IMG/VR virus record: IMGVR_UViG_3300025133_000032
Length of the DNA: 64,000 nucleotides
From: a virus
Reading direction: 5' to 3' (one strand)
Of this stretch, positions 2,593-47,711 are shown piece after piece; position 1 is the first letter of the stretch; each line of letters begins with the position of its first letter. The notes beneath the pieces were generated by a model. The model was given only the letters and a program-made list of their open reading frames with translations. It made no database searches and was not told where the DNA came from. Both the position numbers and the translations under genes were made by a program.

Positions 2593-4056
2593 CTAATAAT
2601 TATTGTCTGCAGCAAATTTCACAGAATCATTTTTATCTTTTCTAAGCATAACAACAATTTCATCTGGTGTCGAGAGATTTTCGGCGACGTTGCGCCTGAC
2701 ACCTGCGTTACTACTCTTTGCTAAAATTTCGTAAATGTCAAATCCGAGGGCCGGTCGGCGTGATAGTGCGGAGGTAACAAATGGAATATCATTTGTCGCA
2801 AGTATCTTAAAAACTTCATGCGAAGCATTTTTATTATTTAAGACAGCATACTGGATCGATTGGTTGGGACGTTTGGCAAGCATGGTGATTGTTTTCGGAT
2901 CTGTAACAGTCATTGCAGCTTGAGCTAGAAGATCTTTATCATCGCCGTCTATAAATGTCATTAATACTTGCTCGGGTGTCGAAGGGTTACGAGCAACGCC
3001 GCGACGCACAAACCAGTTATCATCAGAAGCCAATGTAGCAAGAAGCTCTGGAGGTGTGCGAGAACTATGAGATGCTTCTTCTCGCACACCCTCATTTTCG
3101 CTTGTTGTCATCTTTGTTAAAGCCGGTATTATAATTTCGTTGGTATAATCACTAACTTCACCAGATAATTTATTACCTGCTGATTCTAATGAACTCAATA
3201 AAGCTAAAATTGCTGGGACTCGCATGCCTTTAACGAGCTTTTTAAATCTTGAGACTGACGTTACTGCTTTCTTGATATCTTTTATTGCTGGGTGCTCTTT
3301 TACTTTTTTTGAATGCAGTGTAATAGCATTTATAATGTCTTCTTCTTCTTCTTCGAACTCAAAACTAAAATCAAAATCATCGTTATCTTCGTCAACTGTT
3401 ACAGAACCATACTCAGGCTCTTGTACTTCGCCATTGACTGCCCCAATTGACCACTTTCTTTTTTTATCATGCTTGTCAAGAACATAATAAAGAATGACGC
3501 CATCATTTATTATGTAATTGTAAAATAAGTTCTCACCTTTGGTCCTTGCTGTGCACCATGCCGTGCCGCGCCCAAGCGCGCACGAAGCATCAAGGCTTCG
3601 GGGCATCAAAACAACAAAATTGTCTGATTCATAAACTTTGTCAGCATCGCCAGATGCTGCCTTGAAATCTATCTTAGAATCATCAGGAAGCTCTTCAAGC
3701 TTCCGATGAAGATCCCCAGGGGTCTTATAGGCGTTAATATCTGTGTCTTTTCCCTTTAACTTCTGCCTGCTTTTAGCTTTGTCGAAAGAAATGATTAAAG
3801 GTGAAATATCTCTTAGGGGCTCTTGATTTGAACGTGAAACACGTTCAAGCCACGTGAGGTATTGTTTTAGTTTAGCTTGGGGGAGGATTTGAAGTTTCTC
3901 GAAAACTTCATCCCATTCTTCAGAATGTCTATCAGATCTTGCTTTAATGTCATCAATGGTGCCTTCTGTAAGAAGGCAATTTATTAGCTCTTTCAAGCTA
4001 GTTTCTACCAGCTGATTTGAAATTGCTTCCCGAAGTTCTCTAATCGTGATGAGCAT
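2593..4056 (-). CDS. Paralog of 311-1930: leader, WCT-motif domain, divergent LRV/HEAT-like repeats
   Basis: N-terminal ~200 aa nearly identical to 311-1930 (MLITIRELRE..., GRGTAWCTART). The C-terminus has VRRGVARNPSTP and VRRNVAENLSTP repeats. Confidence 0.7.
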   Translation of the reverse strand: MLITIRELREAISNQLVETSLKELINCLLTEGTIDDIKARSDRHSEEWDEVFEKLQILPQAKLKQYLTWLERVSRSNQEPLRDISPLIISFDKAKSRQKLKGKDTDINAYKTPGDLHRKLEELPDDSKIDFKAASGDADKVYESDNFVVLMPRSLDASCALGRGTAWCTARTKGENLFYNYIINDGVILYYVLDKHDKKRKWSIGAVNGEVQEPEYGSVTVDEDNDDFDFSFEFEEEEEDIINAITLHSKKVKEHPAIKDIKKAVTSVSRFKKLVKGMRVPAILALLSSLESAGNKLSGEVSDYTNEIIIPALTKMTTSENEGVREEASHSSRTPPELLATLASDDNWFVRRGVARNPSTPEQVLMTFIDGDDKDLLAQAAMTVTDPKTITMLAKRPNQSIQYAVLNNKNASHEVFKILATNDIPFVTSALSRRPALGFDIYEILAKSSNAGVRRNVAENLSTPDEIVVMLRKDKNDSVKFAADNNY

Positions 4057-33617: not shown

Positions 33618-33941
33618 TCAGGCGTCGGCGGGTGAATTCTGGCCTGTATCCTGATCATCAGATACAGTATCATTGGCAGCATGAGCCATGATGTTCGAGA
33701 CCTGCAATATTGCACTGTGCGCATCATCTACACGCTTGACAACAAATCTAATCTCTTCGCTATCGGCGGCTACAGGCATCTCAAGAACATCATAAACTGA
33801 GTTATACACATCATCTAAAATTCTTAATGCATCTTCTGTAGCATCATTAAACTTAAAAATTCTTTTTGCAAAAACGAAGTTATACCTAACTGAGATTAGG
33901 AATAGCACCAGAATTACGCCGAATGCAATCCAACCAGTCAT
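33618..33941 (-). CDS. Membrane-anchored hypothetical protein
   Basis: N-terminal hydrophobic helix WIAFGVILVLFLISV followed by a helical soluble part. Confidence 0.6.
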   Translation of the reverse strand: MTGWIAFGVILVLFLISVRYNFVFAKRIFKFNDATEDALRILDDVYNSVYDVLEMPVAADSEEIRFVVKRVDDAHSAILQVSNIMAHAANDTVSDDQDTGQNSPADA

Positions 33942-35113
33942 TGTATATTCTCTTCAAAAAATGCATCGTATAAATTAGAGATAGCGCTGAAAGAGAACTT
34001 GGCTTTGATATCTTCCGCCAAATCTTCTGCCCATTTAAAAGGTACATCAGGCTTCTCTTTAAATTTTCTCAATTTGCGCTTAGCAGATTTCTGATTAACT
34101 TCAGCCCATTTTGATCCATTTACAAAAATCCTACCATCTACCCTTGATGGATGAATCTCTTTTAATTCGAAGTCTAACTTTATAAATTTACCCAAATTCA
34201 TAAAGTCAAGGTGGCCTGACCAATTCGTCGCGATGACAGTTAAACCCGATGCTGCAGCCTCCAGTAATGGTAAACCGAAACCTTCCCCTCGTGTCATACT
34301 CAAAAATGCATGCATTTTAGGGTGTCTGTACAGGCCTGCAATCTCTTTATCATTTAATGTCCCATGAACCAAGTGTACCTTAGGATACTCACCGGTTCTT
34401 ACTTGCTGTAGTACGCTTTTTAATAAGTTCGTCGTAATCTGTCTATCAATTTTTGTATCTCGCCCATTATTCGTTTTTAACACAAGCCCGACAGATTTGT
34501 TTCCCTTAAATTCTTCGCAGAACAACTTGATCGTATGAAATATACTTTTTCTATCGTTATCAGCGTTTTGACCGGTCGTTTGACCAACCAACAAAAAATT
34601 GAAATCTGTATCTAGTTCTAAGTCAATGCTAGCGTCTTCATCAAAAATGCTGTCAATAAATGACTCTGGAATTACGTGTATGGGTGTTGTGATTTCTTTG
34701 CCAGTTGATTGCGACGTTTTTACAAGAACGTCTTTCGTAAAGCTTGATGGTACGATAACGTGATCCATCATATTAACACTGTCTATCCAAGCTGGATTGC
34801 AAACATCAGTTTCGACGGCAGCCGTTACGCCTACATTAACACGCGCCAGCTTGTAATTCCACTCATTCGGAAGTTGTACCTGCACAGACATATCATACGT
34901 CTCATTTTCTGCAGGGCTTGCTTTCTTCATCAACTTACCAATGAGACCATCTTTTAAGTCACTGTCTAGATACCATGGTGTCGCGCCCCACTGTACAGGT
35001 TCAACAAACAATTCTACATCATCTCTACCAAGAAGCCATCTAGCAATTTGTCTAGAATGAACGCCATACCCACTTTGGCTTAATACTGGTGCTCTTAGAA
35101 TAACTTTTTTCAT
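33938..35113 (-). CDS. Glycosyltransferase, GT4 family
   Basis: SGYG motif and RGEGFGLPLLEAAASG (EX7E). Confidence 0.9.
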   Translation of the reverse strand: MKKVILRAPVLSQSGYGVHSRQIARWLLGRDDVELFVEPVQWGATPWYLDSDLKDGLIGKLMKKASPAENETYDMSVQVQLPNEWNYKLARVNVGVTAAVETDVCNPAWIDSVNMMDHVIVPSSFTKDVLVKTSQSTGKEITTPIHVIPESFIDSIFDEDASIDLELDTDFNFLLVGQTTGQNADNDRKSIFHTIKLFCEEFKGNKSVGLVLKTNNGRDTKIDRQITTNLLKSVLQQVRTGEYPKVHLVHGTLNDKEIAGLYRHPKMHAFLSMTRGEGFGLPLLEAAASGLTVIATNWSGHLDFMNLGKFIKLDFELKEIHPSRVDGRIFVNGSKWAEVNQKSAKRKLRKFKEKPDVPFKWAEDLAEDIKAKFSFSAISNLYDAFFEENIQ

Positions 35114-36375
35114 AAAACCTTATGCTCCCATGGAGAGTAAATTTCTTCCCTGTTATTTTCCCATTTATCGATTGTTGCGCTAAGTGTTTTATGCCAGTCA
35201 GAAACCGTCGTCTTCAAATCAAACTCTGAGTGTACATACTTTCTTGCTTTCTTGCCCAGGCGTTCTCGCTCATCAGGGCCCTTTTCGTACATTTCTAGCA
35301 ATGCGTCAGAAACAGCTTCATTTGTGCAATAATCTTCGTAAATGTACGGAACCATCTGTGATCCGACCAAAGAACGTTGAGTTACATCAAGTGCAATACC
35401 ATTCTCAGTATCATCTCGATAATCAACAACCTGCCTAGTTAGACCGCCTGTTTTTACAGCAATAATGGGCTTACCACATTGCATAGATTCCAATGTAGAT
35501 AGCCCAAAACCTTCAGCAGATGAAATATTAAGACAACAGTCAGATATATTATGTAATATATTCATTTGCTCGAAAGATAGTCTCTCTTTAGAAAAAAACA
35601 CACTTTCATTTATATCAAGCATCTCTGACGTCTTTAGCAAATTTGAGCCTTGGTCATCCAGTGGGTCGGTATGCATCACCATTGTTGCATTCCTGTGACC
35701 ATGCTTTAGCTCTAGTTTATCAAGAAAAAGCTTCCATGAGACTAAAACATCATTTGGCCGCTTCCTCTTCGCGTTCCTGTTTACCCATAATACAGTAAAT
35801 GCATCAGCATTTTTCTTTCCCAACAGGTTAATCTTGTTTTCCCTGATTACGCCAGCGGGTAATACGTTGAATAACTCTTTCGGAAGAGCATGTGGTATAA
35901 AGTTTGTCTTTTTTGGGAAATGCTCTTTTACCATATTATATGTCAAATGTGAATGGCAATTTACTAAGTCGGTAGACTCATACAGTACCTTATTATACGC
36001 TGGCCATGGGCCGTTATCCCAAACATGCCAATAAGCTATTGGGCAAATTTGATGAATTTCTTCTTCCATCTCCCAGACCCAAATAAAGAATCTAGGATCT
36101 GTAAATAAGAATAATACATCAGGCTTCTCAGTCGCTAGAGCTAATCTAAGCATATCCCTATTACCAAAGCCGTCGATCGGTTTGATAATAAAATCATCGC
36201 TTACCTTTACTACGTCATAATTTGAATGTTTGACAGCAGCGCCGAAACACCTAAATGAATATTCGCCAGTTTCTAAAAGACCATTGATCAGGTAGCGAGA
36301 TTGCACGCCGACGCCCGAGGTAGATAACGGGTGGTCCGACAGCACTAAAACCTTTTTCTTTTTTCTAGTGTTCAT
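35110..36375 (-). CDS. Glycosyltransferase, GT4 family
   Basis: NRNAKRK and SAEGFGLSTLESMQCG (EX7E). Confidence 0.9.
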   Translation of the reverse strand: MNTRKKKKVLVLSDHPLSTSGVGVQSRYLINGLLETGEYSFRCFGAAVKHSNYDVVKVSDDFIIKPIDGFGNRDMLRLALATEKPDVLFLFTDPRFFIWVWEMEEEIHQICPIAYWHVWDNGPWPAYNKVLYESTDLVNCHSHLTYNMVKEHFPKKTNFIPHALPKELFNVLPAGVIRENKINLLGKKNADAFTVLWVNRNAKRKRPNDVLVSWKLFLDKLELKHGHRNATMVMHTDPLDDQGSNLLKTSEMLDINESVFFSKERLSFEQMNILHNISDCCLNISSAEGFGLSTLESMQCGKPIIAVKTGGLTRQVVDYRDDTENGIALDVTQRSLVGSQMVPYIYEDYCTNEAVSDALLEMYEKGPDERERLGKKARKYVHSEFDLKTTVSDWHKTLSATIDKWENNREEIYSPWEHKVL

Positions 36376-37677: not shown

Positions 37678-38565
37678 TCACATGCTATTTTTGCAATGCT
37701 CCGTATTTTCAAAATCACAAAACCTGCATGAATCCCTATTTTTCAAAAAGAACCCTTTCTTAACAGCCTTCGCATGATTCTTAATAATATTTAATCCTTT
37801 AGCTTCAGCTTTTGGACCTACTGAAACTGGCACTAATTGCACTGCCGGTGATCCTATCTTTGCATCTCTCTTAAGCAAAGCAAAAGCACACCTAATATCT
37901 TTTAGAGGAATATTATGCTTTTTTGCCCAAAAGCTCTTATACAAAATCAATTGCAGCTGTACTTTAAAATCTTGCTTTTTATGACGTGTCCATCCCCAAC
38001 CGCATGTTTTCCAGTCAATAATCCAGTAAATTACCTTACCATTCTTCTTCATGACCTTAAAGACTGCATCAATAAAACCTTTCAATGATATAGGTAATCC
38101 TTCGATGGGTTCGTATAACCTTTCTTCAGCACCAAAGCACTCCCAACCAGGAAATTCTTTATTTAGGAATTTTGGAATGCTGTTAAGGATATTGTCTGCT
38201 TTTTTGAGCCAATCATCTACATTACCATATCCCCCTGGAGACCAATCAGGAAAGGGCCCATTCATAAATGCTTCATGATTATCTTTCCAGTCTTTACGAA
38301 TAAAGTCAAATGCTATCTGTTTATTCATTGTTCCTTTAGAGATGAAATATTCATTTGCATTATGACATGCAGTCCCTAACCCAACATGGGGTGTAGTTGA
38401 AAATGTACCAAGCTTTTCGATATATAAGAGTTTGTGCCTCCAACTACACTCAAGCCAGTTGGCGAGCTCAGAATACGAGACGTGGGGTTTACCAGTAGGC
38501 CAATCTACCTCTGTGGATTTAAAGTCTACTGGTAAACCTGTACTGGGATCAATAATCGCTGACAT
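37678..38565 (-). CDS. PD-(D/E)XK exonuclease (RecB/AddB/Cas4-like) with an Fe-S Cys cluster
   Basis: SYSEL..W.EC, GFID, IIDWKT, QLILY and CRFC.....HC. Confidence 0.9.
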   Translation of the reverse strand: MSAIIDPSTGLPVDFKSTEVDWPTGKPHVSYSELANWLECSWRHKLLYIEKLGTFSTTPHVGLGTACHNANEYFISKGTMNKQIAFDFIRKDWKDNHEAFMNGPFPDWSPGGYGNVDDWLKKADNILNSIPKFLNKEFPGWECFGAEERLYEPIEGLPISLKGFIDAVFKVMKKNGKVIYWIIDWKTCGWGWTRHKKQDFKVQLQLILYKSFWAKKHNIPLKDIRCAFALLKRDAKIGSPAVQLVPVSVGPKAEAKGLNIIKNHAKAVKKGFFLKNRDSCRFCDFENTEHCKNSM

Positions 38566-38631
38566 ATAAATTATTATATGTCAGCGTGTGTTTTAAGTTT
38601 AAATTTAGTGATTTATGAATTCATGCTTACA

Positions 38632-39048
38632 CTATTTTAAATCTAAAACTTCTACTGTGCCTGTTTGCAGTGTTCCAAATTCATCATTTACGTTCAATTC
38701 GACTATTGCTCCATTCTGAGTAGAACACAATACATCTAAACTACTATCATCGAATGAAAACTTCCCAGCAATAACCCCCGTAGATAGCTGGCCAGAACCA
38801 GCAGATGTATACTGACTGCAGTTCTTAAAAATCTTTAAAACAGCTGGCGAAGCATAGATCGTACCCTGCGCAAAATTTTTAGTGAGTTGCCTCTGTACAT
38901 CGTAAATAATTTCTTGTAATGTTGATAACCAGTGTTCTGGTTTACCAGTCCAGCTTGGTCCTCGAGCTGGACTGACTGGTGCTGTTCGTATACCTGTCAG
39001 TTTATTAACAAACTGCCCAGGGGTACTTGACCAATAATATTTTACCAT
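38632..39048 (-). CDS. Stand-alone fragment resembling the axial (A) domain of gp23-family major capsid protein
   Basis: WLSTLQEIIYDVQRQL...IYASPAVLKIF...GVIAGKF aligns by eye with T4 gp23 FKALLFQIDKEAVEI...IIASRNVVNVL...GVLGGKY (recalled sequence). Confidence 0.6.
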   Translation of the reverse strand: MVKYYWSSTPGQFVNKLTGIRTAPVSPARGPSWTGKPEHWLSTLQEIIYDVQRQLTKNFAQGTIYASPAVLKIFKNCSQYTSAGSGQLSTGVIAGKFSFDDSSLDVLCSTQNGAIVELNVNDEFGTLQTGTVEVLDLK

Positions 39049-39049
39049 C

Positions 39050-39810
39050 TTACTTTTTCTCCTTACTCATTTCTTTAAGAACCTCTGCGAGCATTTCATG
39101 CTTTTCATCATAAACGTCAAGGTGGTTATCACCCAATACAAACTTTGCCTTAATATTTCGTGTCATTAATTTCTCCTCAAATGAAAATATCATTTGAAAT
39201 AATCCAACACCTCTATGTGTTGTGTGATGCGCACCCGCATCATATTCATAATTTACCAACTTAAATGGTTCTAGAGTGCTGAAGTCTTTTAGGAATTCTG
39301 GCGTCTCTTCGAATCTTCGAATCTTTTTGCGTTATTTGTGTCCATTAGATGAAAGATCGAACAATGATTTTCATCTAACTCTGCCAATCCTGGATACACA
39401 GGCAGATCAAGAAAAACACCAAGCTTAGCAACTTTCCTAAAGTTCTTCAACACAAGCTCTGTATCATGCATATGCTCGATTGCATCGACACAATATATAA
39501 CATCAAAGCTGTCTTCTTCGTAAATGTCTGTCAAGAGATGAGCATCGCCTTGCAATATCAGAGGTGATTTATTAGAAATGTCAAGCCCAGAAGCAACGAA
39601 GCCCCTATCAATAAAGCTCTGGACCTCAGAATCATCTCTACACCCTACGCATAAAACAGATTCAAACTTTGGTAATGACGAAATCATTAAGTCAATCTCT
39701 TTTTCTCGCTTTGGTGCACGCTTTTTTGTCATGGCACGACGCCTAGGAAGACTATGCTTTTTTGCTTGTCCAGCTACCTGTAGATCAGACTCGATTTCGT
39801 ATCTTCTCAT
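39050..39810 (-). pseudogene. Class I SAM methyltransferase split by an 8-bp tandem duplication (track ORFs 39289-39810 and 39050-39259)
   Basis: Motifs VLCVGCR, GLDIS, GDAH and FDVIYC..AIEH. Removing one copy of (CTTCGAAT)2 at ~39307-39322 gives ...KRFEETPEFLKDFSTLEPFKLVNYEY, in frame with 39050-39259. Confidence 0.65.
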
Positions 39811-40439
39811 ATCAGTTCCCTAAAGTCATTTATCAAAATTGCGTTATTATCTCTAAACCATGACGTATTTTCTTCTTGAGAGGCACATTGAACAAAAACA
39901 AAATTATTAACGTGATCAATAGATGATGAATAATCTAGTTTAGAATCGCCGATTGATAACCTTTTAGCGCCCGGAGACTTGTGTTTAATCATAAAAAAAT
40001 GATCAAACTTCGATTTTTCGCCGTCATAAATTGCTTCAAACTCGCCAAGCAGACTATGCTTCTTGAGTAATGCAGCTATCTCAGACTCTTTGCCTCCAGA
40101 CACAATGAATTTCCGCTTTCCTTTTATTTTCTTCAAAAAATTGGCTGCGCCAGGTATAAATTCTGCATTCATAAAACTTTCGCTTATTATACTTTCATAT
40201 TTTTTAATGCATTTTTCTACAAAAGTATATCTACATTCTGGTTCAATGACATCAGCTAATACATCAAATTTTATACGTCGAGTCATTTCATTATATGTAT
40301 TTAACTTCTTCATGTAGCGGCGCAAGTATCTTTGTGGACATACTTCTTTTATAACACACTCAAAAGCGTCATTTTTGATCTTATTTGTGTCAAAAATTGT
40401 ACCATCAAAATCAAAAATGTACAAATCATAATCTAGCAT
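39807..40439 (-). CDS. HAD-superfamily phosphatase
   Basis: IFDFDGT (motif I), IVSG, K and IGDS..D. Confidence 0.9.
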   Translation of the reverse strand: MLDYDLYIFDFDGTIFDTNKIKNDAFECVIKEVCPQRYLRRYMKKLNTYNEMTRRIKFDVLADVIEPECRYTFVEKCIKKYESIISESFMNAEFIPGAANFLKKIKGKRKFIVSGGKESEIAALLKKHSLLGEFEAIYDGEKSKFDHFFMIKHKSPGAKRLSIGDSKLDYSSSIDHVNNFVFVQCASQEENTSWFRDNNAILINDFRELI

Positions 40440-42180
40440 TTAAAATACCTTCGACAATTGGAATGTCTTCTGGATAATCAACAGCATGCGTAAAAACATT
40501 TTCTTCAATAACAACTTTAACTGGTATGCCTAATTCAAGAAAACGTAATATTTCTATATCTTCCTGTGCTTCAAGGCGTGTTTTTGACATAATACTTGCA
40601 TACCGCTCAAGTTGTATATTAGTGAAAGCGTATACACACACTTGTTTCATCGTTAGCAAAGTACCAACGTTATCATTTATTATACCCTTTTTGTTTCCTG
40701 GGATTGGAGAACGTGATGCATAGAGCAATTCATTTTCGTTATTTAAAACCATCTTGGGCATCTTGGGGTCTGAAGGCGTTTGATTGTTTGGATCTAGTTT
40801 AGATGCGCAATTAATTACATGTCCAGGAAATTGTGTCTTAGCAGCCAACACCCTAGTTATCAGCCCAGGTTCTAACAGCGGTTCATCGCCTTGTACACTT
40901 ATGATAGTGCTAGCGTTTATTTTCTTCGCAGCTTCTGCAACCCTATCCGTTCCTGTCATACAATTCTTACTCGTCAAAATCACATTAAATTTTCTTTCTT
41001 CGACATGTTCCCTAATTTCTTCTGAGTCTGTAGCGATATAAACATTTTCTTTGCCCACTGCCTTAGAAACAAGCTCAGCAACCCTGATTATCATTCGCGT
41101 GCCGTTAATCTTAACGAGTGGCTTTCCTGGAAATCTTGTTGACTCAAATCTTGCAGGAATGATAACAGCAACTTCCTTCTTATTATTGCAGTCAATTAAT
41201 TCTTGCAAATATGCTGGATCGAATGATACTTTTCTTTCATCAACCCTGCTTAAAATTTTGCATGACGTAAAATCGTCAAAACCCCGTTGCTTTAACTTCA
41301 TACAATAAAATGGGTGGATGTCATTTAAGCCTGACAGTTGGTATGCTTGGCTCCATCCCCAGTCGTATTTTTGTTTTAGCGACTCAAAATCATGAATCGT
41401 ATGTTCCAAATATGCTATGTCAGTATCAGGTCTTAAACTTTTTACTAGTGGTAGGAATTGCTCTAAACGTAAATTTCCTACGCCGCGCCCCATCCCTGCA
41501 ATCGTGCCATCTATATATCTGATATTAGGTGTACTCAAAGACTGTATCGCTGTTGCCAATGATGTGCCTAAATTATCATGTAAGTGCAAACCCATGGGAC
41601 TATACTTACCAAAATCATTCATAATCTCTGTTAAACCGGCTGTGCTTAATGACCCATATGAGTCAGCTAGATATAGTACGTCAGCATAACTTCGACATGA
41701 AAATGCGTCTTGAACAACACGTAACTCCTTACTAGTCAACTGTGATATACACATCACATTTAATGCAACGTTATACCCTTTTCTCTTTAGTAAAAAGCAA
41801 ACTTTAGCAGCCGTCTCGATGTCCTTATATCTTGTGGCTACCCTACACCAACTGAATATTGAGCATTTTTCGTCGGGTACAAGAGCATCAATTTGTGTTA
41901 TTTCATGATAAGAAGAGAAATCTTTTAAATCAATCATGAAGCAATACTTTGAGTGTTCAAGTTTCGGTAGATAAGCTAAATCTTTTTCTTCGCACCTTCT
42001 AAAGATACCGCCTTCTAATCTTGACTTATATCCAAGTTCTATAATATCTACTTTTGCTTCGTCAAGTGACGTTACTAGCCGCTCTGTTATATCTCTATCG
42101 AAATTCCAACCAGTGTAGTATCCACCATCTCTCAATGTGCAATCTAAAATTTTTAATCCGAGTTGTGCTAATCGTCCCAT
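40426..42180 (-). CDS. Fusion: DRE-TIM pyruvate aldolase (4-hydroxy-2-oxovalerate aldolase-like) + CMP-Kdo synthetase (KdsB-like)
   Basis: Aldolase half: LDCTLRDGGY, ADSYG, GLHLHDNLG, GMGRGVGN. KdsB half: IIPARFESTRFPGKPL, GTDRVAEA, QGDEPL, LE..E..E.LRFLE.G, AVD.PED. Confidence 0.9.
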   Translation of the reverse strand: MGRLAQLGLKILDCTLRDGGYYTGWNFDRDITERLVTSLDEAKVDIIELGYKSRLEGGIFRRCEEKDLAYLPKLEHSKYCFMIDLKDFSSYHEITQIDALVPDEKCSIFSWCRVATRYKDIETAAKVCFLLKRKGYNVALNVMCISQLTSKELRVVQDAFSCRSYADVLYLADSYGSLSTAGLTEIMNDFGKYSPMGLHLHDNLGTSLATAIQSLSTPNIRYIDGTIAGMGRGVGNLRLEQFLPLVKSLRPDTDIAYLEHTIHDFESLKQKYDWGWSQAYQLSGLNDIHPFYCMKLKQRGFDDFTSCKILSRVDERKVSFDPAYLQELIDCNNKKEVAVIIPARFESTRFPGKPLVKINGTRMIIRVAELVSKAVGKENVYIATDSEEIREHVEERKFNVILTSKNCMTGTDRVAEAAKKINASTIISVQGDEPLLEPGLITRVLAAKTQFPGHVINCASKLDPNNQTPSDPKMPKMVLNNENELLYASRSPIPGNKKGIINDNVGTLLTMKQVCVYAFTNIQLERYASIMSKTRLEAQEDIEILRFLELGIPVKVVIEENVFTHAVDYPEDIPIVEGILNARL

Positions 42181-42959
42181 GACGTCTCCTTAGGATCAAA
42201 TAGTGGCTTCTTTAGCTCAATAAAGAAATTCGAAAACCTTCTTGATACCTTTGTAGGCTCTCTAGGAGTTAAGCCATGAATACTCCGTAATGTATTTAGA
42301 CCTAAGACAAGAGTGTTTTTTTCGTATTTAACAGTATCAACAAGCTCTATATATTTTGCATCTATGTGCCTGCCATTTCTCTCAAATTTAAAACTCTTCT
42401 TATTTTTTAGCTTATAAATTTCTAAATCGCCACCAGGTGTGGTATCTTCGGGAGGCCTTAGATATAGCAACCCGAAAATCAATTTATTAGGTTGATCTAA
42501 ATGAGGGCCTCTTTGTACTGAAGAGGTTTTTAATACGGGACTGTTAATATCTGCAGCTACGTTGATCCCACCATCATGCTGTGTATTAGCGCCCCAAATG
42601 CCTGTTTTGAATGCATTGTTTAAAATGTACTTCTTGTAGAATGCTGGGTATTCCACTTTTAATGCATCACCAAAAATGTCAACAAAGTCTTCAAAAAAAT
42701 CTTTGCCCGTGTTTGCTTGAACGTACTTCTTCCAGTGTTCATTAATCTGGGAATCATTCAATATATCAAATGATGAATAATTGAAACGCTGATTGCTACC
42801 CAAGTTTGCGCTCTTTGCGATAGTGTGATCTGCGGGAAACTCGTCAACTAGCTTGTCACATTCTGCGGATGGCAATGCATTTTTAATAACAACATGGGGA
42901 TACGGATCCAGCCTCAGATCGTCCTTTGTCACATTCTGTAATAATTTATATGACATCAC
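42168..42959 (-). CDS. 2OG-Fe(II) dioxygenase
   Basis: DPYPHVVI, GPHLD (HxD), GGDLEIY and SIHG.....R. Confidence 0.85.
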   Translation of the reverse strand: MMSYKLLQNVTKDDLRLDPYPHVVIKNALPSAECDKLVDEFPADHTIAKSANLGSNQRFNYSSFDILNDSQINEHWKKYVQANTGKDFFEDFVDIFGDALKVEYPAFYKKYILNNAFKTGIWGANTQHDGGINVAADINSPVLKTSSVQRGPHLDQPNKLIFGLLYLRPPEDTTPGGDLEIYKLKNKKSFKFERNGRHIDAKYIELVDTVKYEKNTLVLGLNTLRSIHGLTPREPTKVSRRFSNFFIELKKPLFDPKETSWDD

Positions 42960-43635
42960 TCTTGCCGTCTGTTATTTCGAAAGGGTATAACAATTTTAAT
43001 GTGCCTTCATTATATAGCTTATTAGCATGCTCTTTTTCAAGTGCACCCTTATGATGATCACCTCTGACAACATTCTTATTGTCAGCTAATGCTTGCTTGA
43101 ATATCTCACGCTCTTCTTCGTCCTTTGCCCAATTACCCTTTATAAAAAATTTCTTGTAATATTCTTTCAGCGCTACATCTTCATAATAATGTTTATAAAA
43201 TCCATCATCTGTATCTGTAAAAAATGTAAAACCAAAAGCAGTAACATCTTTATAGTAGTGCAGCGCATGAGCAATGGCTCTAAAACCTATAGATGGGTTG
43301 GGTTCATTCATAGTTGCAAATCTTTCGTCCCATTGATCTGGATCAAGCATCCTGATTACTGATTTGGGCTGGTGCATTTTTGCAGCAAGTTTATGTGCTG
43401 GCTGATTTTTGTGCCATACCTCTTTATACACCCGACAATCACGGCGTTTTGTGCTGCGTGATGTATTAATTGCCCAAATGTCAGTTTTGCTTCCAACGTA
43501 TTGCTCAAATCCTGATGTGGTGTAATTGTTACATCGGACAACTAAATCAAAAGCGTCAACAAGTGAACCAAGCTTGACGTCTTTTACAGTTGGTGCACCG
43601 CCAATAATTACTACTTTAGTTTTTTCGTCAATCAT
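42946..43635 (-). CDS. GT29-family sialyltransferase-like protein
   Basis: Sialylmotif L (VIIGG...G..VD.FD.VVRCN...GFEQYVGSKT), motif S (PSIG...V..FGF), motif III (HYYE) and motif VS (HxxxxE: HKGALE). Confidence 0.85.
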   Translation of the reverse strand: MIDEKTKVVIIGGAPTVKDVKLGSLVDAFDLVVRCNNYTTSGFEQYVGSKTDIWAINTSRSTKRRDCRVYKEVWHKNQPAHKLAAKMHQPKSVIRMLDPDQWDERFATMNEPNPSIGFRAIAHALHYYKDVTAFGFTFFTDTDDGFYKHYYEDVALKEYYKKFFIKGNWAKDEEEREIFKQALADNKNVVRGDHHKGALEKEHANKLYNEGTLKLLYPFEITDGKSDVI

Positions 43636-44282
43636 GCCCTTTGTAATCTCTCATCGTATATAGCGACGTTTGCTATATCATTTGTCCTATTATCATTATG
43701 TTTTCTGTATCTGTAAAAAGGCATCGGCATATAATAGATGTTATGCCTTTTTACATATCTTTTTAATAACTCATGACCTTCTCTCATCTTGTATGTCTTG
43801 TCATAAAACCCAACATCACATAACGATTCATACGTAAACATTATGCCACAGGCTATAGGATCATCCTCAGAATGCTTACGAGCCAAAGTTTTCCCCAAAT
43901 TATCTACTTCGTTATAATCACATGCAACAGCTTGATAGTCTCTATTCATATCTAAAAATAATGAAAGGACATATAGTGTATGTTTAGAAATATAATCATC
44001 AGCATCAACTCGAAAAAAATATCTACCACGAGAATTTTCTAAAGCTACATTTAATGATGCTGGGAGCCCTATATTTACATCATTATTGAAAAGCCTAATG
44101 TTCATAATATCAGACCATGATTTTATGATTGCAGTTAAATCATCATCAGGATCATCATTTACTACTATTATTTCGAATTTGCCGCTTCCAATTGTTTGAT
44201 CTGCCAAACTGCGGAGGCATCTGTGGATCCATTTTTTTTGCTTAAAATTACAAATCGCGATTGTTATATTAAAAGCATTCAT
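43632..44282 (-). CDS. Glycosyltransferase, GT2 family
   Basis: IIVVND, NIGLPASLN and RVDADD (DxD). Confidence 0.9.
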   Translation of the reverse strand: MNAFNITIAICNFKQKKWIHRCLRSLADQTIGSGKFEIIVVNDDPDDDLTAIIKSWSDIMNIRLFNNDVNIGLPASLNVALENSRGRYFFRVDADDYISKHTLYVLSLFLDMNRDYQAVACDYNEVDNLGKTLARKHSEDDPIACGIMFTYESLCDVGFYDKTYKMREGHELLKRYVKRHNIYYMPMPFYRYRKHNDNRTNDIANVAIYDERLQRA

Positions 44283-45199
44283 TACATTAGGCTTAATATG
44301 CCCTCGAGCGCTATTTTTTGGCTATCAACGGTGGCACCTGCGACATGAGGTGTAATATGAAGTTCCATAGAGGGATCATTAGCAAGTTTGAAAATTCTTG
44401 TTTTGCCTAGCAATGCAGCATTCTGTTCGTTTCTAACAACATCACATGAGTAAATTATCTTTTTAGCCTCGACTAAATCGCATATGTAATCTTCATCAAT
44501 AACTTCACCACGTGAAGTATTCACTATGACCAGCCCATCTTTAAAGTTTTCGAATGTTCCACGAGAAATGAGATTCGTTGAAGACTCATTTAATGAACAG
44601 TTGATAGAAATAATATCACATGTCGCCAAGTCGGCAATTGAGTACTCTTTTGTGGCATTGTGACGTTGTCTGTATATATGCGGATCATAAAACTTTACGC
44701 GCATACCAAAAGCTAATGCATATCTTGCGATATTTTGCCCGATACGACCAAAGCCTATAATCCCAATCGTCGCACCTGATAGCTGTCTGCTTCTTAGTTT
44801 GCTTTCATTTGCAGTCTCGCGCCAAGAAGCAGTTCCAGCTAAAGCTGCAAGAAACATTCTATAAGCGCTCATAATATGTAACCATGTAAACTCTGAAGAT
44901 GCTGTTATTTTTGTGAGCTCATCCCTATTATCAAGTAAGCTACTAAATTTTACCCGCTTTTTTGCTAACAAATCAGTGTCGACGTGGTTTTTGCCCGTCG
45001 AAGGTGTTCCTACATGGACTAGCGTGGGATAATCGCTAAAGTAATCTTCGCCCAAAAATCTATCAGTCCCTGGATTAACGACAAGATAGTTTGGGCTAGA
45101 GTTATCTATCATAAACCCATGAGAGTTTAGATACAAATTTAAATCTTCTTCCAACCAATCAATTGGGCAATCTAGCTTAATTCTTTTATAATTTTTCAT
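44282..45199 (-). CDS. D-isomer-specific 2-hydroxyacid dehydrogenase (SerA-like)
   Basis: GIIGFGRIG, VNTSRGEVIDE and ITPHVAG. Confidence 0.9.
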   Translation of the reverse strand: MKNYKRIKLDCPIDWLEEDLNLYLNSHGFMIDNSSPNYLVVNPGTDRFLGEDYFSDYPTLVHVGTPSTGKNHVDTDLLAKKRVKFSSLLDNRDELTKITASSEFTWLHIMSAYRMFLAALAGTASWRETANESKLRSRQLSGATIGIIGFGRIGQNIARYALAFGMRVKFYDPHIYRQRHNATKEYSIADLATCDIISINCSLNESSTNLISRGTFENFKDGLVIVNTSRGEVIDEDYICDLVEAKKIIYSCDVVRNEQNAALLGKTRIFKLANDPSMELHITPHVAGATVDSQKIALEGILSLM

Positions 45200-45917
45200 T
45201 TAATAGTAGTTCCGCAATCTTCATGTCAAGTTTAGTATCGATGTTTACTGATTCCATTTCTGGCATAATGTACGCTAAACACCTTTTGCCATGCCTAGAA
45301 AATTCATTGATGATCGTATCTCTTGTCATAGAATAAATAGCACCATTTCTAATGTAACATGGCTCTAAGTCTTGCCTTCTAGAACCCTCACCTTCAGGAA
45401 ATTCTTTGCAAAAATCCGTAAATGTTCCATCATCCAGTATTCTTTTCATTCTGCGTGGATGCTTATCTTGCATCATTGTTACTGATGTCACGCCAGTAAT
45501 GTCAGGAGAAGAGAATAGAAGTTCCGCAGCTTCATTAATATGCTTTTTATTTCTTAGTGGTGCGACGCATGGCAGCTCGAACACGTAGTCGTATGTATCG
45601 CAATTAGTGAGCAATGTTTTTTCTGCCTCAAGAACAGCATGCTTTAATGCATCTCGTGACCAAACATTATCGCCAGCCAATTCTTTTGGTCTGTCGATGA
45701 TTTTAACCTCTTGTGTCGATGTCTTAACAGCTAATGCAATATTTTCATCGTCTGTACTGACTACAATGTCAGAAAAAATGCCGGAGTCTAGTGCGGCCTC
45801 TAGCGTCCATTGGATCAAATATTTTCCCGCGATAGGGTATATATTTTTGTAAGGGATTCCTTTAGAACCGCCCCTAGCTAATACGACACATAGTACTTTT
45901 TTATCTTTTGATTGCAT
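45186..45917 (-). CDS. neuA: Acylneuraminate (CMP-nonulosonate) cytidylyltransferase; likely start MQSK at 45917
   Basis: ARGGSKGIPYKNI, VSTDD, DRP.ELA.D, RRQD, NGAIY and SVNIDT..D. Confidence 0.9.
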   Translation of the reverse strand: MQSKDKKVLCVVLARGGSKGIPYKNIYPIAGKYLIQWTLEAALDSGIFSDIVVSTDDENIALAVKTSTQEVKIIDRPKELAGDNVWSRDALKHAVLEAEKTLLTNCDTYDYVFELPCVAPLRNKKHINEAAELLFSSPDITGVTSVTMMQDKHPRRMKRILDDGTFTDFCKEFPEGEGSRRQDLEPCYIRNGAIYSMTRDTIINEFSRHGKRCLAYIMPEMESVNIDTKLDMKIAELLLNEKL

Positions 45918-46614
45918 TTCTTGCTCTCTGTATTTCGTTGCCATAAGTTCTTAAACCTTTTAATTCATCTGGTGTCATAGAACCTAGATGATCACGACCA
46001 CTCATTGTTTTATTTAGTGTAAAGTGCTTCTCTATAACATCAGCACCTTGTGCAATATGATAAAGCGGCGCACCCAAACCAAAAGAGTGATCACTTAAGC
46101 CGATAACATTGCCGACGTAATCCCTAAGGGGTGCTTGATCAATAAACGTCGTAGGGTATTTAGAGATGCAGTTTAAGAACTTTGTATATCCAGATAATTT
46201 AAAAGGTAAAGCTTCATTATCATGCATCCCTAGAGAAACATAGACATCTTTTTCCAATTTTTTTGCTAAACTCGTTACTAATGATGCAAGAGCAGGGTCA
46301 TGCTTGACTGTCCTGCTGGCGACCTTATACGCATCGATATCAAGTAAACCGCACCACCCTAATCGGATCTTATCAAATGCAGATATCATCAATTTAATAT
46401 CATAGTGCTCACAAAACTTCTTTATTTTTTCTAGTTGTCCAAAAGTTAATTCATTATGAGCCCTTGAACTGTCACCAAATAAGCTTTGCGATGAGTATAG
46501 TTGAAACTTTGCAAAATCTGCACCTGATAGTGAAGCTTGGCGAATGAGTTCGGGAATAAGGTCAAAATTTCCATTCCAATTAATCCCTATTTCTGCTATA
46601 ATCTTAATTGACAT
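45901..46614 (-). CDS. neuB: N-acetylneuraminate/nonulosonate synthase lacking the C-terminal SAF domain
   Basis: IIAEIGIN.NG, KFQ, YKVAS, C.S.YP, GLSDHS and IEKHFTL...G.DH; only 237 aa. Confidence 0.9.
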   Translation of the reverse strand: MSIKIIAEIGINWNGNFDLIPELIRQASLSGADFAKFQLYSSQSLFGDSSRAHNELTFGQLEKIKKFCEHYDIKLMISAFDKIRLGWCGLLDIDAYKVASRTVKHDPALASLVTSLAKKLEKDVYVSLGMHDNEALPFKLSGYTKFLNCISKYPTTFIDQAPLRDYVGNVIGLSDHSFGLGAPLYHIAQGADVIEKHFTLNKTMSGRDHLGSMTPDELKGLRTYGNEIQRARNAIKR

Positions 46615-46637
46615 TAATTTAATTTACCCCTTATTGC

Positions 46638-47711
46638 TTAGATGTTTAAAAAAGACGTAACAATATTATCTACTGCATTTTCTTTCAAAATATAGTCTGA
46701 CATGCCACTATAATCAATTCGTGGACATGGACCGAGCATTTTGTCGATAGAATCTATGTGTATATTAACAAGATCATCAGGATATACCACATATTCTGGA
46801 AGATAACTTACTCCTTTGTGGTAAGACTTGCCCACCATATTCATAGCGTAACAAGGAACACCCGTAAAATAAGTTTCCCAAGAAATATGGCTTCCAGACA
46901 TATTGAAAATTTTCTCACATTTTGACATCACTTCAAAGTGATTTTGGCTGTCGACTATCGAAAATGTAGGAAACATACTCTTCAGCATTTCATATTGCGG
47001 TTTATTACCGATAGGTCTTCTATAAACGCCAGTATACTTTCTCTCACTTTCATAAAAAAGATAGTCATGGGGATATGTTTTAACGTATACTTTTATATTT
47101 TTCTCATGACTCAACTGCGTGAGCACATGCATATTTTGCTTAAACTGCTCTTGATGGCTTTTTGGATTTGACGGAACGACTAAGATAGAACCCTTCTCTG
47201 TTTTTGTGTTACATCCTAAGTATGGATCATAGTGGGGAGAACCAGTGACGAAAATATTATTTTCATTATAACCCATTCTAACAAGCCAATTTTTCCATAT
47301 GTTACCCTTTACAAAAAAATGCGTAGCAAAGTGTGTAGCGTTTGTTAGAATATCTGCACCGCCAATATCCCAGGCACATAAGTTACATTGCACAGCATCA
47401 CGGAGACCTTTCGGAAACCTTATCTTCGGTGCTATATGAGAAGAACACAAAATCGATTCGTAATTTGCAGACTTTTTTACAAAATCTGACCAATCTTTTA
47501 ATAGAATAGGCCTTCTACTAGTGAACTCCGCAATATCAAAATGGAACTTTTCATTTCCAGTAAACTTTTTATTTAGTCTAATATCATCCTTGAACATCAA
47601 TAAATCACACGATGTTACTTTACTTAGCTTGTCATAAAGGCGCAGGCCATCATACGGAACTGTACTCCAAAAGAAGTCACTAATTAAAACAGCATTCTTT
47701 TTTATAAACAT
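46638..47711 (-). CDS. GT-B-fold protein (possible ulosonate transferase or NeuC/TagF-like)
   Basis: NIFVTGSPHYD, VYVKTYPHD (K.HP-like) and SHISWETYF.GVP; adjacent to neuB. Confidence 0.55.
   Translation of the reverse strand: MFIKKNAVLISDFFWSTVPYDGLRLYDKLSKVTSCDLLMFKDDIRLNKKFTGNEKFHFDIAEFTSRRPILLKDWSDFVKKSANYESILCSSHIAPKIRFPKGLRDAVQCNLCAWDIGGADILTNATHFATHFFVKGNIWKNWLVRMGYNENNIFVTGSPHYDPYLGCNTKTEKGSILVVPSNPKSHQEQFKQNMHVLTQLSHEKNIKVYVKTYPHDYLFYESERKYTGVYRRPIGNKPQYEMLKSMFPTFSIVDSQNHFEVMSKCEKIFNMSGSHISWETYFTGVPCYAMNMVGKSYHKGVSYLPEYVVYPDDLVNIHIDSIDKMLGPCPRIDYSGMSDYILKENAVDNIVTSFLNI

What the first reader, a model, noticed from the sequence alone, without database searches (positions are those of the whole stretch)
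38632..39048. Stand-alone 138-aa copy of the major-capsid A-domain outside the head module
Seen: an intact small ORF YYWSSTPGQFVNKLTG...PSWTGKPEHWLSTLQEIIYDVQRQL...IYASPAVLKIF...GVIAGKF. From recall, this follows the gp23-family axial-domain succession (helix xxLxxxIxxxxxxI, strand IxASxxV, then GxLxG[KR][FY]) but lacks the N-arm, E-loop and P-domain needed to assemble a shell. Established: several anti-phage systems (CapRel, Lit) are triggered by major capsid protein. Inference: a capsid-mimic decoy for capsid-sensing defences, an assembly modulator, or an adaptor for capsid-modifying enzymes of the surrounding island.
Basis: partly seen in the sequence, partly recalled or inferred. Interest (0 to 1): 0.7.

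Follow-up and report, generated by a model that had tools for sequence, protein, structure and literature searches.

The report
Stand-alone capsid A-domain gene
A giant marine phage carries, inside its sugar-synthesis gene cluster, a small intact gene that is a fast-evolving copy of only the central "A-domain" of a T4-type shell protein; it belongs to a sizeable family I could not find described, and its job is unknown.

Summary
Observation confirmed. ORF 38632-39048 (-) is an intact 138-aa gene with no Pfam or PHROG hit. It is a homologue of the axial (A) domain of gp23-type major capsid proteins (MCPs):
- An exhaustive phmmer search reaches full-length PF07068 MCPs.
- hhalign of its family against MCPs gives 99.95% probability, E 3e-38.
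- An MCP-only profile hits this ORF alone in the window (E 2e-12).
- The AF2 model (pLDDT 86) aligns to T4 gp23 residues 315-521 and to other HK97-fold capsids (Z about 10).

It lacks the N-arm, E-loop, spine helix and P-domain hairpin, so it cannot build a shell.

It is not a decaying fragment. Dozens of intact relatives exist, 116-170 aa or about 235 aa with an N-terminal extension, many on phage contigs of 100-350 kb, and they share its boundaries and motifs. On a tree they group together inside one marine clade of ~640-aa MCPs, on branches roughly 10-fold or more longer than the MCP branches.

In 7 of 9 phage lineages examined, the window included, the gene lies in a glycan-biosynthesis island. 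Here it is the last gene of an overlapping glycan operon. Four related genomes keep the island's GT4 gene but lack the A-domain gene, so it is accessory.

Function is untested. I favour a soluble capsid-surface mimic acting with the island's enzymes (about 0.35) over an immune decoy or an assembly factor. This scan has noted similar genes on other DNA.

The parts
38632..39048 (-). 138-aa gene: stand-alone, diverged copy of the gp23-type MCP A-domain
   Evidence: ORF list. phmmer reaches PF07068 MCPs. hhalign E 2.8e-38. MCP-only HMM E 2.2e-12. AF2 pLDDT 86, pTM 0.79. VIA-align Z 9.3-10.1 to the S6, T4 gp23 and P1 capsids. ESM-Atlas shape TM 0.84 to a Gp23 cluster.
38992..39039 (-). Residues 4-19, motif YYWSSTPGQFVNKLTG: first strand and loop of the A-domain, the most conserved block shared with MCPs
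   Evidence: W6, P10, G11 and G19 are invariant in alignment A1; S7, F13, N15, K16 and T18 are at least 90% conserved. The block aligns to MCP W447-G460, where W, S, R, P, G, F, K and G are invariant.
38884..38940 (-). Residues 37-55: long A-domain helix (query HWLSTLQEIIYDVQRQL; family consensus REWYETLxETIxD)
   Evidence: Helix 37-55 in the AF2 model. W40 is invariant; T43, L44, E46 and D50 are at least 90% conserved. The helix aligns to MCP 480-495.
38641..38670 (-). Residues 127-136: C-terminal strand ending VEVLDLK, the counterpart of the MCP C-terminus (TVTCLDMNVI)
   Evidence: Strand 127-135 in the model. The family consensus GxVxVLD has D136 at least 90% conserved. The MCP consensus ends in the same motif. 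The roughly 50 MCP residues between VLVGYKG and this strand are absent from the small proteins.
39050..39259 (-). Upstream 69-aa ORF of unknown function; its stop lies one base before the A-domain gene's ATG
   Evidence: No family hit. Called as a gene in two independent metagenome contigs.
39289..47711 (-). Upstream run of overlapping or closely spaced glycan genes (methyltransferase, HAD, aldolase-like/cytidylyltransferase fusion, 2OG oxygenase, GT29, GT2, dehydrogenase, cytidylyltransferase, epimerase-like). The ORF is the last gene of this run.
   Evidence: Pfam hits. Gene overlaps of 1-44 nt, and no TATAAT-like motif in front of the ORF or of the 69-aa ORF.
38557..38586 (-). 13-bp hairpin just after the ORF. 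It is terminator-like and includes the start codon of the next gene.
   Evidence: strand folding -23.4 kcal/mol, z -7.3. Terminator-like hit.
37678..38565 (-). Downstream PD-(D/E)XK nuclease; a neighbour of the A-domain gene in related phages as well
   Evidence: PF12705 E 3e-14. 41% identical to the G002 gene that also adjoins an A-domain copy. The same family lies 4-7 kb downstream of the copies in L087, L117 and L119.
33938..36375 (-). Pair of GT4 glycosyltransferases that marks the end of the island in all related phages
   Evidence: PF00534. Homologues 58-64% identical in G002, G003, G004, G005 and G009. The same pair is present in L087, L100 and L119.

Best explanation
Identity (confidence about 0.95). 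The gene encodes a soluble, single-domain protein descended from the A-domain of a gp23-type major capsid protein. It kept the A-domain core: the first strand and loop, the long helix, the strand-helix unit, the small sheet and the C-terminal strand. It lost the N-terminal two-thirds of the MCP (propeptide, N-arm, E-loop, insertion domain, spine helix) and the P-domain hairpin that interrupts the A-domain in the MCP sequence. It therefore cannot be a shell subunit. It belongs to an accessory, fast-evolving family found on large contigs of marine phages whose MCPs form one ~640-aa clade.

Mechanism (inferred, about 0.35). The protein is made together with the phage's glycan-synthesis enzymes and acts as a free look-alike of the capsid's A-domain, which forms the centre of each capsomer. 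It would serve either as an acceptor or carrier that the island's glycosyltransferases modify, or as an adaptor that links them to the capsid. The variable enzyme sets of these islands would explain its rapid divergence.

Shown: homology, fold, family, location and operon structure. Inferred: that it binds anything, what it binds, and that the island glycosylates virions.
For: Homology and fold:
- phmmer hits include full MCPs that score PF07068 at E 1e-64 to 1e-72.
- hhalign of the small family against MCPs gives 99.95% probability, E 2.8e-38.
- An MCP-only HMM hits this ORF alone in the window, E 2.2e-12.
- BLASTP to an MCP: 38% identity, E 3e-15.
- The AF2 model has pLDDT 86 and aligns with Z 9.3-10.1 to the C-terminal A-domain part of the T4 gp23, S6 and P1 capsid proteins. 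TM is 0.84 to a Gp23 cluster.

A maintained family:
- Shared start and end boundaries and invariant W6, P10, G11, G19, G35, W40 and G91 across 23 proteins about 30% identical to the query.
- 322 short hits to the family profile, many on contigs of 100-350 kb.
- The identical protein occurs in contigs from several marine samples.

Origin and rate:
- All 42 truncated forms fall on one side of a branch inside the MCP clade. Their end branches are 0.4-6.6, against 0.02-0.35 for MCPs.
- Between this phage and G002, GT4 is 64% identical, the nuclease 41% and the A-domain copy 25%.

Link to glycan genes:
- This ORF is the distal gene of an overlapping glycan operon and has no TATAAT-like motif of its own.
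- Homologues in L087, L088, G002/L100, P0242/L117, P0004 and P0191/L119 also lie inside glycan islands. They are often adjacent to a UDP-sugar dehydrogenase, in one case with the stop and start overlapping.
Against: - No direct evidence shows that the island glycosylates the virion or that this protein is glycosylated or binds a transferase.
- The shared location may simply be inherited gene order within one phage lineage.
- Four related genomes keep the GT4 gene but have no A-domain copy at E <= 0.01; two of them are 93% and 100% complete. The island can therefore work without it.
- Other family members lie elsewhere: beside UvsX and dUTPase, beside denV, and in head or tail modules of G001 and G002.
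- Fast evolution, patchy distribution and multiple copies also fit conflict genes.
- The immediate neighbours differ between phages.
Confidence: 0.35

Rival explanations
1. Anti-defence capsid mimic. The free A-domain binds host immune sensors that recognise the MCP A-domain. It would act as a non-activating competitor or sponge that protects newly made MCP from detection.
For: [quoted passage not shown]
- The family is accessory, patchy, multi-copy in some genomes and evolves far faster than the MCP. This is typical of conflict genes.
- Some copies sit among DNA-metabolism or accessory genes.
Against: - Known capsid sensors are switched on by binding their target, so a mimic would more likely trigger than block them. 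I found no described capsid-fragment inhibitor.
- The conserved placement inside glycan operons is not explained.
- The host and its defences are unknown.
- The MCP loop HRKTLRGSANF, invariant in MCPs, is not conserved in the small proteins, so part of the MCP surface is not mimicked.
Confidence: 0.2
2. Head-assembly or virion accessory protein. The free A-domain docks on capsomers or on unassembled MCP, for example as a decoration, a plug at capsomer centres, a chaperone-like cap, or a size or vertex modulator.
For: - It derives from the domain that makes intra-capsomer contacts (established knowledge of the HK97 fold).
- Paralogous copies in G001 and G002 lie within head or tail structural modules.
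- Variants with an added N-terminal domain, loop insertions or two copies in one chain resemble the modular add-ons of decoration proteins.
- Small proteins of the same fold are predicted in cultured jumbo phages: Noxifer, Motura and Y3.
Against: - The MCP A-domain is almost invariant in this clade while the small proteins diverge rapidly. That is unexpected for a partner of a fixed surface.
- The gene is absent from several complete relatives.
- It has no capsid-targeting leader and this copy is not in the head module.
Confidence: 0.2
3. Weapon against competing phages: a dominant-negative A-domain that poisons the capsomer assembly of co-infecting relatives.
For: Truncated subunits of self-assembling proteins often act as dominant negatives (general principle). 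The family evolves fast and is distributed patchily.
Against: The MCP A-domain is so conserved across the clade that the phage's own MCP would be poisoned too. There is no supporting context.
Confidence: 0.05
4. Non-functional remnant of a duplicated capsid gene.
For: It matches only part of an MCP. Its closest relative is only about 40% identical.
Against: - The frame is intact, and dozens of intact relatives share the same boundaries and conserved motifs at about 30% identity to the query.
- It gives a confident compact fold.
- It is translationally coupled within an operon.
- The only difference among three copies over 740 nt is one synonymous change.
Confidence: 0.03

Closest known systems
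Major capsid protein gp23 of T4-type phages (Pfam PF07068; PDB 5VF3, 7VRT, 6UZC), and specifically the ~640-aa marine clade whose closest cultured member here is Flavobacterium phage vB_FspM_immuto
   Same: Homologous sequence and fold over the A-domain. The ORF aligns to MCP residues about 444-570 plus the C-terminal strand: 38% identity over 84 aa, hhalign E 3e-38, Z about 10 to gp23 315-521.
   Different: It is about a fifth of the length. It has no propeptide, N-arm, E-loop, insertion domain, spine helix or P-domain hairpin, so it cannot form a lattice. It evolves roughly 10-fold or more faster. It scores below any Pfam threshold on its own.
T4 gp24 head vertex protein (PDB 1YUE), the classic MCP paralogue
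   Same: A second gene derived from the MCP within the same phage. The A-domains superpose: Z 8.0, 107 residues.
   Different: gp24 is a full-length HK97-fold subunit that builds the pentameric vertices. This protein keeps one domain only and lies in a glycan operon.
Other exapted HK97-fold proteins: encapsulin shell proteins, and the satellite capsid-size protein Ccm of SaPIbov5 (the latter from my recall)
   Same: They show that the capsid fold can be reused for other jobs. Encapsulin A-domains appear in the structure hits at Z 6-7.5.
   Different: Those proteins keep the whole fold and still assemble into shells. Here only the A-domain survives.
Stand-alone capsid-piece genes noted earlier in this scan on other giant phages (e1-5632988, e1-5642376, e1-5643893, e1-5408875)
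   Same: Small accessory genes that copy the MCP core or A-domain. They sit among sugar, DNA-metabolism or early genes and their function is unknown.
   Different: These are unchecked AI notes on other genomes. A word look-up with a family member (P0020) found no look-alike stretch in other windows, so they may be separate lineages of the same phenomenon.

Membership tests
gp23-type major capsid protein (PF07068, HK97 fold) | A-domain with homologous sequence and fold | tested here: met
   hhalign E 2.8e-38. MCP-only HMM E 2.2e-12. VIA-align Z 9.8-10.0 to gp23. TM 0.84 to a Gp23 cluster.
gp23-type major capsid protein (PF07068, HK97 fold) | P-domain with spine helix and the beta-hairpin inserted in the A-domain sequence | tested here: not met
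   The ORF starts 3 residues before the first A-domain strand. The MCP segment between VLVGYKG and the C-terminal strand has no counterpart.
gp23-type major capsid protein (PF07068, HK97 fold) | N-arm, E-loop and cleavable N-terminal propeptide needed for lattice contacts and assembly | tested here: not met
   The protein has 138 aa in total and only MCP columns about 435-570 are matched. No leader is present.
gp23-type major capsid protein (PF07068, HK97 fold) | Scores above the Pfam gathering threshold | tested here: not met
   No Pfam family at E <= 1 for the ORF. Relatives P0002 and P0004 score 13.6-15.2 bits against a cut-off of 24.4. The two-copy protein P0047 passes with 41.5 bits.
gp24-type vertex paralogue | Full-length HK97-fold subunit able to form pentons | tested here: not met
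   Only the A-domain is present.
Stand-alone A-domain family defined here (alignment A1) | Start within a few residues of the [YF]WS motif, the shared motifs in order, and an end at the VLD strand | tested here: met
   The ORF matches the family HMM end to end (positions 1-131 of 133), E 8e-36. Alignment.
Stand-alone A-domain family defined here (alignment A1) | Coexists with a separate full-length MCP in the same genome | tested here: inconclusive
   Shown for G001 and G002.
Phage anti-defence decoys or sponges for capsid sensors | Binds or neutralises a host sensor of the MCP | not testable with these tools
   The host and its defence genes are unknown, and no known anti-defence family matched. 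The PADLOC library was not searched because it holds defence proteins, not counter-defence proteins.
Capsid decoration proteins (Hoc, Soc, gpD-like) | Fold or sequence similarity to a known decoration protein | tested here: inconclusive
   No such protein appeared among the PDB or BFVD matches, which were dominated by MCPs. Absence from a list does not exclude a decoration role.

The most novel reading that the evidence does not exclude
Giant marine phages have turned the exposed A-domain of their shell protein into a free-standing module that works by molecular mimicry of the capsid. One possibility is an acceptor or adaptor that couples a phage-encoded glycosylation pathway to the virion. 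The other is a competitive antagonist of host receptors that sense the A-domain interface (Avs7/8/10-type). Either would be a new functional class of phage protein built from a capsid piece.
Probability: 0.2. Interest if true: 0.85.

Novelty: new variant of a known kind. Interest (0 to 1): 0.6.

Why it matters
Full-length capsid paralogues such as gp24 are textbook. A widespread family that keeps only the A-domain, sits in glycan operons and evolves much faster than its parent is something I could not find described (no Pfam or PHROG family).

The A-domain forms the centre of each capsomer, and several bacterial immune receptors have just been reported to grip its penton/hexon-forming interface. 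A free copy is therefore a natural probe for two open questions: how phage virions get glycosylated, and how phages cope with capsid-sensing immunity.

The family also gives a clean example of domain-level exaptation of a virion protein. It supplies testable candidates, including similar small proteins predicted in cultured jumbo phages.

Tried and rejected
- **Own MCP.** I could not fetch it. The first window gene was not on record, and the next gene gave only short contigs. An exact 40-mer is absent from IMG/VR. An MCP on a 308,639-bp contig (P0121) proved to be another phage and came without DNA. MCPs of related phages were used instead.
- **Phage collection.** blastn and tblastn of the ORF and its region found nothing.
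- **Sequence search of solved structures.** A profile search of PDB sequences gave only chance-level hits, E >= 0.45.
- **Structure without an alignment.** Single-sequence AF2 was useless, pLDDT 35.
- **Complex prediction.** The ORF with the G002 MCP gave no verdict: score 0.01, below the mark of 0.32. This is not evidence either way, and the pair was not cognate.
- **Expression.** No RNA holder was listed among public runs, only marine DNA metagenomes. This is no evidence on expression.
- **dN/dS.** Not possible. The three DNA copies of the ORF differ by one synonymous base. The G001, G006 and G007 copies are identical. Other relatives are too diverged.
- **Spurious hits.** P0011 and P0022 from the phmmer list are repeat proteins and were discarded.
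- **Shared C-terminal tail.** A search for a C-terminal VLD-type tail on other window proteins found only the ORF itself.
- **N-terminal extension.** The extension of the ~235-aa forms shows no match to any MCP part.
- **Split MCP gene.** Rejected, because full-length MCPs coexist with the small genes in G001 and G002.

Full report
**1. The observation**

The window has an intact ATG-started ORF at 38632-39048 on the minus strand. Almost every sizeable ORF in the window lies on the minus strand.

The window holds three kinds of gene:
- a baseplate and tail module at about 5-33 kb (gp6-like wedge, PHROG 6);
- two LRV-repeat proteins at its start;
- a glycan-biosynthesis island of roughly 28 kb from 33.9 kb onward.

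The island includes GT4, GT2 and GT29 transferases, two cytidylyltransferases, GDP-mannose dehydratase, an aminotransferase, methyltransferases, HAD and a 2OG oxygenase.

The ORF has no Pfam or PHROG hit, even at E <= 1. It has no match in 50,697 phage records. In the 5.8-billion-cluster protein collection it matches only itself, and the longest contig carrying it is 308,593 bp. The same protein occurs on short contigs from other marine samples. Those DNA copies differ from the window by one synonymous base in 740 nt. Marine metagenome runs filed under seven studies hold all or part of this stretch.

**2. What it is**

An exhaustive phmmer search of 1.84 billion representatives found 48 further proteins at E <= 1e-3; two of them are spurious repeat hits. 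Most of the rest are 116-176 aa, with the match beginning at or near their own N-terminus. Seven are 232-241 aa with the match in their C-terminal part.

Several hits are long proteins. Pfam identifies these as gp23-type major capsid proteins (PF07068, E 1e-64 to 1e-72).

The 23-member alignment of short forms (A1) shows one pattern throughout:
- a start 1-20 residues before the block [YF]WSRxPGKFVNKxTG;
- a variable loop;
- GPxFTGTVREWYETLxETIxD;
- VSPxVxxILE;
- a second variable loop;
- GxL..RF.V;
- an end at GxVxVLDMNI.

Full MCPs of the same clade contain the same blocks in the same order and end with TVTCLDMNVI. Between VLVGYKG and that last strand, however, they carry about 50 further residues that the small proteins lack. 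In the HK97 fold, a P-domain hairpin interrupts the A-domain in the sequence (established knowledge). The small proteins are therefore the A-domain with its P-domain insert removed.

Statistics and structure agree:
- hhalign of the small family against six MCPs gives 99.95% probability and E 2.8e-38 over 121 columns.
- A profile made only from 25 full-length MCPs finds this ORF and nothing else in a six-frame ORF set of the window (E 2.2e-12).
- BLASTP of the ORF against one MCP gives 38% identity over 84 residues (E 3e-15).
- With the family alignment, AlphaFold2 gives a confident compact model: pLDDT 86, pTM 0.79. The single-sequence model was useless.
- Foldseek puts capsid proteins first, ahead of low-probability unrelated chains.
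- In the VIA-align re-alignment of Foldseek's matches, the first 39 rows are all HK97-fold capsid or encapsulin chains except one de novo design.
- The best rows are the S6 jumbo-phage MCP residues 357-528 (Z 10.1), T4 gp23 315-521 (Z 10.0), gp24 222-422 (Z 8.0-9.8) and the P1 MCP 375-550 (Z 9.3). Each aligns 104-116 residues at 2.6-3.4 A and covers the C-terminal A-domain part of the target.
- The ESM Atlas shape search gives TM 0.84 to a Gp23 cluster. Its own feature and structure searches also point to capsid proteins.

**3. Not a remnant, but a family**

A profile search restricted to proteins of 63-280 aa found 322 hits at E <= 1e-5. Some are contig-end fragments of MCPs; these carry PF07068 and sit on contigs of about 1 kb. 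About half of the 120 listed hits have no Pfam family. They fall into two size classes, about 116-180 aa and about 224-251 aa, and many lie on contigs of 100-350 kb.

In IMG/VR, the shared motif picks up at least 594 loci. The best 80 are all full MCPs, 608-716 aa where the gene is whole. The closest cultured relative of this MCP clade is Flavobacterium phage immuto, at 43% identity.

Whole-record searches show that small copies coexist with a full MCP:
- G002 (318 kb) has two small copies.
- G001 (391 kb, terminal repeats) has a tandem pair plus a split copy. G006 and G007 are the same phage.
- G003, G004, G005, G008 and G009 have the MCP only.

A maximum-likelihood tree of the A-domain segment has 69 rows and is rooted on a T4-type gp23. 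All 42 truncated forms fall on one side of a branch (SH-aLRT 80) inside the marine MCP clade. A single origin is therefore compatible with the data but only weakly supported.

MCP end branches are 0.02-0.35 substitutions per column. Those of the small proteins are 0.4-6.6, and the query's is 2.76. The forms with an N-terminal extension are the slowest and most basal of the truncated forms. Their A-domain part matches MCPs at E 2e-50, while the extension matches no MCP region.

Between this phage and G002, the GT4 is 64% identical, the nuclease 41% and the A-domain copy 25%. Intact frames, fixed boundaries, invariant Trp, Pro and Gly positions and a confident fold across this divergence all argue against a decaying fragment.

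**4. Surroundings**

In the window, the ORF's ATG follows the stop of a 69-aa ORF by one base. Upstream, the genes from 39289 to about 46600 overlap by 1-44 nt. Several neighbouring transcription units carry a TATAAT-like motif 5-12 nt before their ATG, but the ORF and the 69-aa ORF do not.

A 13-bp hairpin (z -7.3) follows the ORF and includes the start codon of the next gene, a PD-(D/E)XK nuclease. The ORF thus looks like the last gene of a glycan operon.

Homologues in other phages occupy the same neighbourhood:
- L087: between a methyltransferase and a UDP-sugar dehydrogenase, with the nuclease and the GT4 pair about 6 kb downstream.
- L088: directly after the dehydrogenase.
- G002 (L100): between the GT4 pair and the nuclease, on the opposite strand.
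- P0242 (L117): its stop overlaps the dehydrogenase start.
- P0004, a 232-aa form: among epimerases, transferases and dehydrogenases.
- P0191 (L119): upstream of the dehydrogenase, nuclease and GT4 pair.

Counting the window, that is 7 of 9 phage lineages examined. The exceptions are a copy beside UvsX and dUTPase and one beside denV, both on contigs of about 3 kb. The extra copies of G001 and G002 lie in structural modules.

G003, G004, G005 and G009 carry the conserved GT4 (58-61% identity) but no small A-domain gene at E <= 0.01. The gene is therefore an accessory part of the island, not a core part.

**5. How it most likely works**

Shown: the protein is a soluble copy of the capsid domain that forms the centre of each capsomer. 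It cannot join a lattice. It is maintained, diverges fast, and is usually encoded and probably transcribed with glycan enzymes.

Inferred: it acts by resembling the capsid surface.

I rank the options as follows.
- **Partner of the island's enzymes (about 0.35).** It could be an acceptor or carrier that is itself glycosylated, or an adaptor between transferases and the capsid. This explains the recurrent location, the operon coupling, and the rapid change alongside variable enzyme sets.
[quoted passage not shown] Such sensors are activated by binding, however, so a mimic would have to bind without activating. The MCP-invariant loop HRKTLRGSANF is not kept in the small proteins.
- **Head-assembly or decoration protein (about 0.2).** Copies in structural modules and modular add-ons fit this. 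The contrast between a nearly frozen MCP surface and a fast-changing partner does not.
- **Dominant-negative weapon against rival phages (0.05).**
- **Dead remnant (0.03).**

**6. Comparison with what is known, and novelty**

The closest known proteins are gp23-type MCPs and the gp24 vertex paralogue. The ORF shares one domain with them and fails every other defining feature of a shell subunit (see the membership table).

I found no Pfam or PHROG family for it. None of the 23 members of alignment A1 matched a PHROG family. Three full-text literature searches found no paper describing a stand-alone A-domain protein.

BFVD contains small uncharacterised proteins with the same predicted fold. They come from an uncultured marine phage and from the cultured jumbo phages Noxifer, Motura and Y3. 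These are leads only.

This scan has noted comparable genes on other giant-phage genomes (e1-5632988, e1-5642376, e1-5643893, e1-5408875). Those are unchecked AI notes and add no independent support, but they suggest the phenomenon is general.

I class the finding as a new variant of a known kind: a domain-level capsid paralogue.

**7. Limits**

- The phage's own MCP could not be read.
- The complex prediction gave no verdict.
- No RNA data were found.
- dN/dS could not be computed.
- The tree rests on about 138 columns and has many long branches.
- That the island glycosylates virions is itself an inference.

Noticed in passing
window 38557-38586 (-): A perfect 13-bp hairpin (-23.4 kcal/mol, z -7.3) lies between the ORF and the PD-(D/E)XK nuclease gene. 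Its 3' arm contains the nuclease start codon, and its loop region holds a TATAAT-like motif. It could be a terminator, a translational block on the nuclease, or both.
   Followed up: partly
window, upstream of genes ending at 1930, 4056, 5227, 30258, 36375, 37660, 38565, 57355: A TATAAT-like element (for example CATATAATAAT, GATATAATAGTTAG) sits only 5-12 nt before the ATG of genes that follow an intergenic gap. This suggests promoters with very short leaders and no Shine-Dalgarno sequence, as expected for a phage with a Bacteroidota-type host.
   Followed up: no
P0047 (432 aa); G001 L101 9181-9681 and 9674-10252; L102 10125-10337: The family also occurs as a two-copy protein (P0047, whose C-terminal copy passes the Pfam Gp23 threshold), as a tandem gene pair, and as a copy split over two frames of 72 and 106 aa in G001. 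The split copy may be a frameshift or a pseudogene.
   Followed up: partly
P0006, P0024, P0036, P0043 (alignment A1, columns about 120-135): Some family members carry a Cys-rich insert with CxxC-type pairs in the second variable loop. It looks like a small zinc knuckle grafted onto the A-domain.
   Followed up: no
P0004, P0009, P0015, P0023 and others (alignment A5, residues 1-95): The ~235-aa forms share an N-terminal domain of about 95 residues (consensus FIxKKRD...PADxY...) that matches no part of the MCP and no Pfam family. These are the slowest-evolving truncated forms.
   Followed up: partly
BFVD entries A0A1Y0SV83 (Pseudomonas phage Noxifer, 138 aa), A0A514CSE5 (Achromobacter phage Motura, 116 aa), A0A2H4IBH4 (Erwinia phage Y3, 125 aa): Small uncharacterised proteins of cultured jumbo phages have predicted structures similar to this A-domain model (Foldseek probability 0.63-0.98, TM by target 0.48-0.54). 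They are possible experimental stand-ins.
   Followed up: no
L087 4042-8700; L117 10451-14727: In related phages, the stretch between the A-domain gene and the nuclease holds NAD-salvage and stress genes: NAMPT, NMNAT-Nudix, an HD-domain protein, PTH2 and a dual-specificity phosphatase. All of these are missing at this position in the window.
   Followed up: no
window 311-1930 and 2593-4056 (-): Two paralogous proteins share an N-terminal region and carry LRV/HEAT-type repeats (PF01816, E 6e-31 and 1e-11). Earlier notes of this scan call them a dispersed effector-like family.
   Followed up: no
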